Assembly: GCF_009914755.1 (NCBI RefSeq)
Contig: NC_060934.1
DNA length: 64,000 bases
Reading direction: 5' to 3' (one strand)
From: the human T2T-CHM13v2.0 reference genome, Homo sapiens
Notes under the pieces: generated by a model
The model's database searches: none
What the model saw: the letters and a program-made list of their open reading frames with translations, nothing else
Told to the model about the DNA's origin: nothing
Shown: positions 2,945-3,265 of the stretch, piece after piece
Numbering within the stretch: position 1 is the first letter of the stretch
Layout: each line of letters starts with the position of its first letter
Program-made: the position numbers and the translations under genes

Positions 2945-3265
2945 TTTTTTGTTTTTTGTTTTTTGAGACAGAAAAAAAGCGACAGAGGCAAGAATCTCTT
3001 ACTCTGTCACCCAGGCTGGAGTGCAGCGGCACAATCTCAGCTCACTGCAACCTCCGCCTCCTGCATTCAAGCAATTCTCCTGCCTCAACCTCCCGAGTAG
3101 CTGGGATTACAGGCACCCACCACCATGCCCACCTAATTTTTATATTTTTAGTAGAGATGGGGTTTCATCAAGTTGGCCAGGCTGGTTTCGAACTCCTGAC
3201 CTCAGGTGATCTGCCCGCCTCAGCCTCCCAAAGTGCTGTGATTACAGGTGTGAGCCACTGCGCCT
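2945..3265 (-). mobile_element. AluS in ASB13 intron 5, carrying a foreign ~30-nt insertion
   Basis: Alu consensus match; non-Alu sequence at 2972-3002. Confidence 0.92.

What the first reader, a model, noticed from the sequence alone, without database searches (positions are those of the whole stretch)
2972..3002. Reciprocal patch: the same Alu contains a 19-nt copy of the ASB13 3'UTR
Seen: where an Alu should read gagacagagtctcactctgt, this one reads gagacag-aaaaaaagcgac-agaggcaagaatctcttac-tctgt. The 19-mer at 2984-3002 is identical to 3'UTR positions 765-783. The adjacent aaaaaaagc (2972-2980) equals the reverse complement of 808-816, about 25 bp from that source; this is weak evidence because it is short and low-complexity. 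With the 55-nt copy going the other way, the Alu and the 3'UTR each appear to have donated sequence to the other. Inference: one complex repair event, or repeated events, favoured by physical juxtaposition (a loop or R-loop over the terminal exon). This is the most unexpected signal in the window.
Basis: partly seen in the sequence, partly recalled or inferred. Interest (0 to 1): 0.82.

Follow-up and report, generated by a model that had tools for sequence, protein, structure and literature searches.

The report
Reciprocal copy-paste scars, Alu and 3'UTR
An intronic Alu and the ASB13 3'UTR two kilobases away each carry a short exact copy of the other, most likely scars of error-prone DNA repair by template switching: real and rare, but probably without function.

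Summary
The 19-mer at 2984-3002 is identical to 765-783. With up to 1 mismatch it occurs only at these two places in the 3.1-Gb assembly. The companion 55-mer (1191-1245 = 3151-3205) is also exact only here; 165 other places match it with 1-2 mismatches. Neither match extends beyond its block.

The 55-mer carries four departures from the Alu family consensus, and only the neighbouring Alu has all four. The 19-mer covers exactly the stretch where this Alu departs from 64 other Alus, plus a few bases of microhomology.

The Alu-tail lesion is compound: net +23 nt, with 2-4-nt microhomologies. It may include an inverted 9-mer from 808-816 (weak).

Best reading: microhomology-mediated templated insertions of the Pol-theta end-joining or MMBIR kind. 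They are atypical in three ways: direct orientation, about 2 kb range, and reciprocity. They were probably made in one episode (about 0.55), late in the Alu's life.

The loop or R-loop cause, the single-event model and the branch of origin are untested, because no primate or population data were available. There is no sign of function. Interest is moderate.

The parts
765..783 (+). Donor of the 19-mer, in the single-copy ASB13 3'UTR about 95-113 nt from the annotated transcript end at 670
   Evidence: Exact match to 2984-3002. Only these two places in the genome at up to 1 mismatch. UTR 700-860 is single copy.
808..816 (+). Possible donor of the inverted 9-mer found at 2972-2980 (weak)
   Evidence: 9/9 reverse-complement match. 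The word occurs 5 times in 64 kb on both strands.
1182..1188 (+). Left member of a near-duplicate flanking the UTR patch; the right member is at 1251-1258 and they share a 6-mer (weak)
   Evidence: a shared 6-mer in such flanks is seen at 4.8% of window positions.
1191..1245 (+). 55-nt Alu-derived patch inside the ASB13 3'UTR exon (57/58 if extended to 1248)
   Evidence: Exact copy of 3151-3205. Exact match genome-wide only at these two places; 2 places at 1 mismatch; 167 in all at up to 2 mismatches. Flanks are not Alu-like.
2944..3264 (-). Old AluS-like element, T-rich tail plus body, sense on the minus strand like ASB13, in the last intron
   Evidence: Partial SRP-model hits on the minus strand at 2983-3133 and 3152-3265. 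Alignment with 64 Alus shows 28 substitutions in 263 positions and no indel column in the body.
2972..2983 (+). Filler of the Alu-tail lesion: a run of seven A plus GC (2972-2980), then GAC, which begins a second GACAG (2981-2985) repeating 2967-2971
   Evidence: A 5-mer duplicated across such a gap is seen at 4.0% of window positions.
2984..3002 (+). 19-nt copy of UTR 765-783, lying in the loop and left stem of the Alu tail's own hairpin
   Evidence: Family homology resumes at about 2997-3003. Hairpin 2981-2987 pairs with 3002-3008.
3151..3205 (+). Donor of the 55-mer, in the left monomer of the Alu next to the A/T-rich linker
   Evidence: Four departures from the family majority at 3158, 3168, 3171 and 3187, all shared by the UTR copy.

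Best explanation
The two blocks are scars of templated (copy-and-paste) insertion. A 3' DNA end at a break or stalled fork annealed by a few bases of microhomology to a nearby template, copied a short stretch, let go and rejoined.

In the Alu tail, about 8 nt of Alu were replaced by 17 nt copied from UTR 767-783. Read on the minus strand, entry was on GT and return on CTCT, which makes the 19-nt identity. Beside this lies a second 14-nt insert: a run of seven A plus GC, and a repeated GACAG.

In the 3'UTR, 55 nt (perhaps 58) were copied from the left monomer of the same Alu.

Both copies are direct and reciprocal, and their templates lie 2.0-2.2 kb away. I infer they arose in one error-prone repair or replication episode: either two nearby breaks whose ends used each other's flanks as templates, or one break-induced-replication tract with several template switches. 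This happened late in the life of the Alu. The product is most likely neutral.

Shown: the copies, their uniqueness, their directions, the microhomologies and the relative lateness of the 55-mer. Inferred: the enzyme class, the single episode and the neutrality.
For: - Uniqueness: the 19-mer with up to 1 mismatch is at 2 places in the genome, both here. The exact 55-mer is at 2 places, both here. Two other Alus match it with 1 mismatch, and 167 places match with up to 2.
- Sharp edges: local alignments do not extend beyond 19 nt and 58 nt.
- Direction of the 55-mer: it is Alu-family sequence inside single-copy UTR. It has all four of this Alu's departures from the majority of 64 Alus. The two 1-mismatch Alus are not siblings of this one: 80.9% identity over 272 nt and 87.4% over 127 nt, against a median of 82.7% for 64 Alus.
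- Direction of the 19-mer: none of the 64 other Alus has it. The rest of this Alu has 0 indel columns in 263 positions. The identity block spans exactly the non-Alu bases plus 2-4 bases that Alu and UTR share. That is expected for UTR-to-Alu copying and would be a coincidence in the reverse direction.
- Coupling: my detector finds exactly these 2 isolated copies in the window. In 200 kb of chromosome 1 it flagged 2 hits, both of which extend into longer gapped alignments, so none was sharp. It found 0 in 48.9 kb of other loci. This puts the background at about 1 per 100 kb or less.
- Timing: all 4 substitutions in the 55-nt interval were shared and none arose since. A simple model gives time since copying divided by Alu age a median of 0.08 and a 95% bound of 0.31.
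- Known chemistry (passages read, PMC5068794): Pol-theta extends one 3' end using the other end as template, which gives forward-oriented inserts. Donors lay 50-1,000 bp away, and the reciprocal event was equally likely.
- Germline multi-template insertions exist in people (PMC8421209, passages read).
Against: - The intervening 1.7 kb (1246-2971) is intact. Simple one-break Pol-theta joining between two ends would delete it, so the single-episode model needs two breaks with re-ligation, or a replicative tract.
- The template distance of about 2 kb and the direct orientation lie outside the operational definition of MMBIR-type insertions (inverted, within 100 bp; PMC8421209).
- The ancestral UTR sequence is unknown, so the junctions of the 55-nt patch cannot be parsed. 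On the present sequence its left junction shows 0-1 nt of microhomology.
- The flank duplications are weak (4.8% and 4.0% of random positions).
- The presence of the Alu-tail patch in any genome other than CHM13 was not checked. The UTR patch is only inferred to be in the RefSeq transcript, from the unbroken exon 670-1529 in the hub's table.
Confidence: 0.6

Rival explanations
1. Two separate templated-insertion events at different times, at a locus that is break-prone and whose two segments are habitually close in space (a hot spot: terminal exon, R-loop, or Alu-tail hairpin).
For: - Each patch can be explained on its own by one break and one excursion.
- The Alu tail has an intrinsic hairpin, with the patch in its loop.
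- Nothing in the sequence dates the 19-mer. Zero differences in 19 nt is uninformative.
- It needs no re-ligation of a 1.7-kb fragment.
Against: The background density of such sharp copies is about 1 per 100 kb or less: 0 in about 310 kb outside this locus. Two independent events with mutually reciprocal donors inside 2.5 kb would need a local rate increase of two orders of magnitude or more. Both patches share the same style: a direct copy, short microhomology and a small local duplication.
Confidence: 0.27
2. RNA-templated repair. Nascent ASB13 pre-mRNA contains both donors. It served as template for plus-strand 3' ends at breaks, through Pol-theta reverse-transcriptase activity or LINE-1 ORF2p (class 2 templated sequence insertions).
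For: - Both donors lie in one transcription unit.
- Both copies have the orientation that reverse transcription of the minus-sense pre-mRNA would give on the plus strand.
- Repair patches derived from RNA are described (PMC5110952, passages read).
- Pol-theta reverse transcribes RNA (PMC8195485, title and abstract seen in the listing).
Against: - If the inverted 9-mer at 2972-2980 really comes from 808-816, both strands were used, which RNA cannot supply.
- Two direct orientations are expected 1 time in 4 by chance, so orientation does not discriminate.
- There is no poly(A), no TTTT/A site and no long target duplication.
Confidence: 0.12
3. The 19-mer was acquired when the Alu integrated. The reverse transcriptase copying the Alu RNA jumped to ASB13 RNA a few bases after starting and then jumped back. 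Only the 55-mer is a later repair scar.
For: - The patch lies 7 nt from the tail, where reverse transcription starts.
- The plus strand reads as cDNA of ASB13 RNA.
- The 5' junction of the same Alu also carries filler with an inverted copy of the target (3265-3276).
- The apparent target duplication runs into the Alu's own last bases, which hints at atypical priming.
Against: The Alu is old: 10.6% diverged overall and 6.3% at non-CpG positions. Two neutral 19-nt copies of that age should differ by about 2-4 bases, giving a probability of no difference of roughly 0.02-0.13 (my estimate). This reading also leaves the reciprocity with the 55-mer as coincidence.
Confidence: 0.07
4. No reciprocity. 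The Alu tail acquired its odd sequence by itself, and both the 19-mer and the 55-mer were then copied from the Alu into the UTR.
For: Order and orientation are colinear: 765 before 1191 in the UTR, and 2984 before 3151 in the Alu. Eight of the 19 bases are colinear with ordinary Alu sequence.
Against: It needs three clustered untemplated insertions in an Alu with no other indel. It also needs a later copy whose ends happen to bracket exactly those insertions with margins of 4 and 2 nt.
Confidence: 0.04

Closest known systems
Pol-theta-mediated end joining with templated insertions (delins), as described in C. elegans (PMC5068794, passages read)
   Same: Insert identical to nearby sequence. Forward orientation, as when the opposite end serves as template in trans. 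Short microhomology at entry and return. A small deletion with the insert (8 nt of Alu replaced). Aborted and repeated synthesis giving compound inserts. Either end can be donor or primer.
   Different: There the outcome is one junction with the intervening DNA deleted, and donors lie 50-1,000 bp away. Here there are two junctions 1.8 kb apart, the intervening DNA is kept, and donors lie 2.0-2.2 kb away. Dependence on POLQ is not testable from sequence.
MMBIR-type templated insertions in human germline and cancer (PMC8421209, passages read)
   Same: Germline occurrence. Microhomology-flanked short inserts. Complex events copied from several templates (up to five reported).
   Different: The operational definition there is an inverted copy of a template within 100 bp. 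Here the two main copies are direct and the templates lie about 2 kb away.
Class 2 templated sequence insertion polymorphisms (PMC5110952, passages read)
   Same: A short patch from a transcribed region inserted at a break. No poly(A) and no LINE-1 site. Microhomology and extra bases at the junctions.
   Different: Those donors are distant, often on other chromosomes, and the events are one-way. Here the donors are in cis within one gene and the exchange is reciprocal. Polymorphism was not tested.
Local n-jumps and cycles of templated insertions in cancer genomes (PMC7025897, passages read)
   Same: Copy-and-paste logic: the templates are retained, several local jumps occur in one event, and inverted and non-inverted junctions are mixed.
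   Different: Those are somatic, with kilobase to megabase segments detected as copy-number gains. Here the inserts are 19-55 nt and germline or fixed.
Non-classical Alu insertions (mentioned in PMC5402677, passages read)
   Same: The 55-mer is an Alu piece truncated at both ends, without poly(A) and without a clear target duplication.
   Different: Non-classical insertions are taken to come from Alu RNA of any source. Here the only exact source in the genome is the Alu 2 kb away.

Membership tests
Pol-theta end-joining templated insertion (delins) | Insert is an exact copy of sequence near the break | tested here: met
   19/19 and 55/55 identity to sequence 2.2 and 2.0 kb away. Both are unique in the genome.
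Pol-theta end-joining templated insertion (delins) | At least 1 nt of microhomology where synthesis starts and where the end rejoins | tested here: met
   Met for the Alu patch, read against the majority of 64 Alus: 2 nt and 4 nt on the minus strand. Inconclusive for the UTR patch, because the ancestral sequence is unknown.
Pol-theta end-joining templated insertion (delins) | A single junction, with the sequence between the two ends lost | tested here: not met
   1246-2971, which holds the coding part of the last exon, is intact between the two patches (and the hub table).
Pol-theta end-joining templated insertion (delins) | Dependence on POLQ | not testable with these tools
   Needs genetics.
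MMBIR-type templated insertion as defined in PMC8421209 | Inverted copy of the template | tested here: not met
   Both main copies are direct. Only the weak 9-mer is inverted.
MMBIR-type templated insertion as defined in PMC8421209 | Template within 100 bp of the insertion | tested here: not met
   The offsets are 2219 and 1960 nt.
MMBIR-type templated insertion as defined in PMC8421209 | Insert of 10 nt or more flanked by microhomology; may be multi-template | tested here: met
   Net +23 nt in the Alu tail, built from at least two segments.
Class 2 templated sequence insertion | No target duplication, poly(A) or TTTT/A site; end-joining features at the junctions | tested here: inconclusive
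   No poly(A) and no TTTT/A site at 1190/1191 or 2971/2972. Short flank near-duplicates exist, but they are weak.
Class 2 templated sequence insertion | Donor is a distant genomic region; presence/absence polymorphism in people | not tested
   The donor is local, not distant. No population data were available.
Classical Alu retrotransposition (target-primed reverse transcription), considered for the 55-mer | 3' intact element with a poly(A) tail and target site duplication | tested here: not met
   The 55-mer is an internal piece of the left monomer without a tail.
Interlocus gene conversion | Homology flanking the converted tract | tested here: not met
   The flanks are unrelated and the alignments stop at the block edges.

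The most novel reading that the evidence does not exclude
A single germline repair episode in which two lesions 1.8 kb apart, one in the terminal exon of ASB13 and one in the hairpin-forming tail of the intronic Alu, were held together. Each used the other's flank, or the shared nascent transcript, as template, and the segment between them was kept. This would be a natural record of reciprocal trans-templated synthesis. It would also be a sequence-level footprint of physical juxtaposition of a terminal exon with its last intron in germ cells, and could be searched for genome-wide as a new class of paired scars.
Probability: 0.4. Interest if true: 0.6.

Novelty: new variant of a known kind. Interest (0 to 1): 0.45.

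Why it matters
If the two patches arose together, they show that human germline repair can cross-copy between two sites about 2 kb apart without losing the DNA in between. Current callers would miss this outcome: those for MMBIR-type inserts look for inverted copies within 100 bp, and those for Pol-theta scars look at single junctions. Paired reciprocal copies could then serve as a sequence-only marker of which DNA segments were neighbours at the moment of repair.

For ASB13 itself, the result is 55 nt of sense Alu sequence in the mature 3'UTR. I found no sign that this has a function. As a single case it is an instructive anecdote, not a new principle.

Tried and rejected
- Chance: rejected.
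- Repeat family or paralogue: rejected. UTR 700-860, Alu tail 2935-3010 and 1525-1600 each hit only themselves in the genome. The search with 1180-1260 hit only itself and Alus. There is therefore no pseudogene or duplicate that could serve as an internal outgroup.
- Remnant of a second Alu insertion in the UTR: rejected. The 55-mer shares four departures from the family majority with the neighbouring Alu alone.
- Decayed tandem duplication: considered because the blocks are interleaved and colinear. Rejected, because nothing else matches and the offsets differ by 259 nt.
- Gene conversion: rejected, because there is no flanking homology.
- Exon or splice product: the 55-mer has no splice-like borders in the Alu.
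- Structured RNA: Rfam gave only Alu-type hits below threshold, to the SRP, mir-1268 and mir-3135 models.
- DNA folding of the patch and donor regions: z-scores were -1.6 and -1.9 for the Alu tail and +0.5 for the donor, so not significant.
- Flank duplications: weak.
- Literature on ASB13 together with Alu elements: one paper, which only lists the gene name.
- A search for reciprocal templated insertions gave 6 papers. I read passages of one (PMC5068794), which describes reciprocity of roles at one junction, not paired scars. I found no description of paired reciprocal scars. This is not proof that none is in print.

Full report
**What is there.** The window's first 3.5 kb hold the last exon of ASB13 (minus strand; 3'UTR 670-2570 by the hub's table). 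They also hold the start of its last intron, which contains one Alu. On the plus strand the Alu reads antisense: a T-rich tail from about 2944, its last bases at 2965-2971, and its body up to 3264. Rfam's SRP model hits the minus strand at 2983-3133 and 3152-3265, below threshold, as expected for the two Alu monomers. The Alu is therefore in the same sense as ASB13.

**Check of the observation.**
- The 19-mer at 2984-3002 is identical to 765-783, and the neighbouring bases differ on both sides.
- 2972-2980 equals the reverse complement of 808-816.
- The companion 55-mer 1191-1245 equals 3151-3205, or 57/58 if extended to 1248.
- A word-10 dot plot of 600-3500 shows only these two outliers. The next direct matches outside low-complexity sequence are 13 and 11 nt.

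**Not chance, not a repeat family.**
- The window's own assembly could be searched. The 19-mer with up to 1 mismatch occurs at 2 places in 3.1 Gb, both here. The reversed pattern gave 1+1 hits.
- The exact 55-mer occurs at 2 places, both here. Two other Alus match it with 1 mismatch, and 167 places in all match with up to 2.
- UTR 700-860 and the Alu-tail stretch 2935-3010 each hit only themselves.
- In 30 third-order Markov copies of the window, 19-mer pairs averaged 0.067 per window. None of the 30 had a pair within 5 kb.
- Gapped local alignment around each block does not extend it: score 19 over 19 nt and 56 over 58 nt. Two 18-mers elsewhere in the window extend to 66-70 nt, so they are parts of diverged repeats.

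**Direction of the 55-mer.** It is Alu-family sequence embedded in single-copy UTR. Against the majority of 64 other Alus (23 from the window, 41 from fetched loci), this Alu differs at four positions of the interval: 3158, 3168, 3171 and 3187. The UTR copy has all four. No other Alu in the genome has the combination. The two that come within one mismatch are not close kin of this Alu: 80.9% identity over 272 nt and 87.4% over 127 nt, against a median of 82.7% and a maximum of 87.3% for the 64. The four changes are therefore best read as private mutations of this locus, and the UTR block as a copy of this very Alu.

**Direction of the 19-mer.** None of the 64 Alus has it, and the genome has no third copy. 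The body of this Alu has no indel column in 263 aligned positions. Yet 23 extra bases are packed into the 44 nt from 2965 to 3008. The identity block spans exactly the non-Alu bases plus a few bases at each edge that Alu and UTR share. That is what copying from the UTR into the Alu with microhomology predicts. For the reverse direction it would be a coincidence. I put the reverse direction at about 4%.

**Anatomy of the Alu-tail lesion**, read against the family majority.
- On the minus strand the Alu runs up to a GT. Then come 17 bases that are UTR 783-767 in reverse complement. These end in CTCT, which both the UTR and the Alu have, and from there the Alu continues.
- In effect 8 Alu bases were replaced by 17 UTR bases, with 2-nt and 4-nt microhomologies.
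- Three bases further on lies a second insert of 14 nt. On the plus strand it is a run of seven A plus GC (2972-2980), followed by a second GACAG (2981-2985) that repeats 2967-2971.
- The A-run plus GC matches UTR 808-816 in inverted orientation, 25 nt from the 19-mer donor. That word occurs 5 times in 64 kb. Its nearness to the donor has a raw probability near 0.6%, and perhaps a few percent after allowing for the choice of word and strand. This is suggestive only. If real, both DNA strands of the UTR were used as template.
- The Alu tail has its own 7-bp hairpin (2981-2987 pairs with 3002-3008 in the present sequence), and the UTR-derived bases sit in its loop. The fold is not significantly better than shuffles, with z-scores of -1.6 and -1.9.

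**Anatomy of the UTR patch.** The ancestral sequence is unknown, so the junctions cannot be parsed. On the right, two matching bases follow one mismatch (1246-1248). This could be a 58-nt copy with one error, or 2-nt microhomology. The patch is flanked by a near-duplicate sharing a 6-mer (1182-1188 and 1251-1258), but 4.8% of window positions show as much. The hub's table has exon 670-1529 unbroken across the patch, while a 65-nt stretch (1530-1594) is split out. I infer that the RefSeq transcript contains the 55-mer, so it is not private to CHM13. Nothing comparable is available for the intronic patch.

**Timing.** The Alu differs from the family majority at 28 of 263 positions (10.6%). Of these, 14 are CpG transitions and 14 are other substitutions, which is 6.3% of non-CpG positions. 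From general knowledge of Alu subfamilies, this is the range of old AluS elements, tens of millions of years old. All four substitutions in the 55-nt interval predate the copy, and none has arisen since in either copy. A simple model puts time since copying, divided by Alu age, at a median of 0.08 and a 95% bound of 0.31. The 55-mer is therefore a late event. It was not made when the Alu integrated. The 19-mer cannot be dated from sequence.

**One episode or two.** A detector for exact blocks of 19 nt or more within 5 kb whose local alignment does not extend gave these results:
- It finds exactly these two blocks in the 64-kb window.
- In 200 kb of chromosome 1, chosen by round numbers, it gives two hits. 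Both extend into longer gapped alignments (31 over 49 nt, 26 over 41 nt), so neither is sharp.
- In 16 other loci (48.9 kb) it gives none.

With none in about 310 kb outside this locus, the background is at most about 1 per 100 kb. An independent second scar landing in the 300-bp donor of the first, and drawing its template from the recipient's neighbourhood, would have a probability below about 1 in 1,000. The two are therefore coupled, either by one episode or by a strong local hot spot. I favour one episode (about 0.55 overall), but nothing here proves it.

**Mechanism.** The features are those of microhomology-mediated template switching: exact short copies, 2-4-nt microhomologies, a small deletion with the insert, compound inserts and retained donors.
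- In the Pol-theta model (passages of PMC5068794 read), a 3' end is extended using the other end as template in trans. This gives forward-oriented inserts. Snap-back in cis gives inverted inserts. Donors lay 50-1,000 bp away, and either end could be primer or template.
- That polarity fits here. Two opposing 3' ends, one left of about 1190 and one right of about 2971, could each copy the other's single-stranded overhang. This would give precisely two direct, reciprocal copies.
- The difficulty is that the 1.7 kb between them is intact. One needs two breaks with the fragment re-ligated, or a replicative tract (break-induced replication) that switched templates twice within 2 kb.
- Germline multi-template insertions are known in people (PMC8421209), but as defined there they are inverted and lie within 100 bp.
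- The same polarity also fits plus-strand ends copying the displaced minus strand of an R-loop, or the pre-mRNA itself (PMC5110952; PMC8195485, abstract in the listing). Sequence alone does not separate these.

**What could not be done.** No primate, other mammalian or human population sequence is reachable with these tools. The branch of origin, the ancestral junctions, the direction test by outgroup and linkage of the two patches all remain open. Supplements of the cited papers were not read.

**Verdict.** The reciprocal reading is supported. The event class is known, but this configuration (direct, about 2 kb, reciprocal, intervening DNA kept) is not one I found described. I found no sign of function, and none was directly tested. 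Interest is moderate.

Noticed in passing
window 1530-1594: The 65-nt gap between the two RefSeq 'exons' of the 3'UTR has no GT-AG on the minus strand, is single copy in the genome, and has a 2-nt TC overlap at its edges. It reads as an indel between CHM13 and the reference transcript, not as an intron.
   Followed up: partly
window 3265-3284: Twelve extra bases lie between the Alu head, which ends at 3264 about 5 nt short of the family majority, and the right target duplication. Eight of them are an inverted copy of the adjacent target, which makes a perfect 16-nt palindrome at 3269-3284. This looks like a snap-back filler from the Alu's own integration.
   Followed up: partly
window 2950-2970 and 3277-3297: The apparent target site duplication of the Alu (19 of 21 identical; 13 nt exact at 2958-2970 and 3285-3297) runs into the six bases that are also the Alu's own 3' end. 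This is either a 1-in-4,096 coincidence or priming inside the Alu's end rather than in its tail. It is unresolved.
   Followed up: no
window 765-3205: The two donor-recipient pairs are interleaved and colinear (765 < 1191 < 2984 < 3151), with offsets of 2219 and 1960 nt. This is as if two segments lay side by side in parallel with a shift of about 2 kb.
   Followed up: no
window 2984-3002, minus strand: Read in the sense of the ASB13 transcript, the copied 19-mer begins with a 5'-splice-site-like GTAAGAG, and a pyrimidine run follows it. This was noted from the sequence only. No alternative exon is annotated there.
   Followed up: no
window about 9700-10560: A tandem array with a 16-nt period, about 54 registers, lies in an ASB13 intron.
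   Followed up: no
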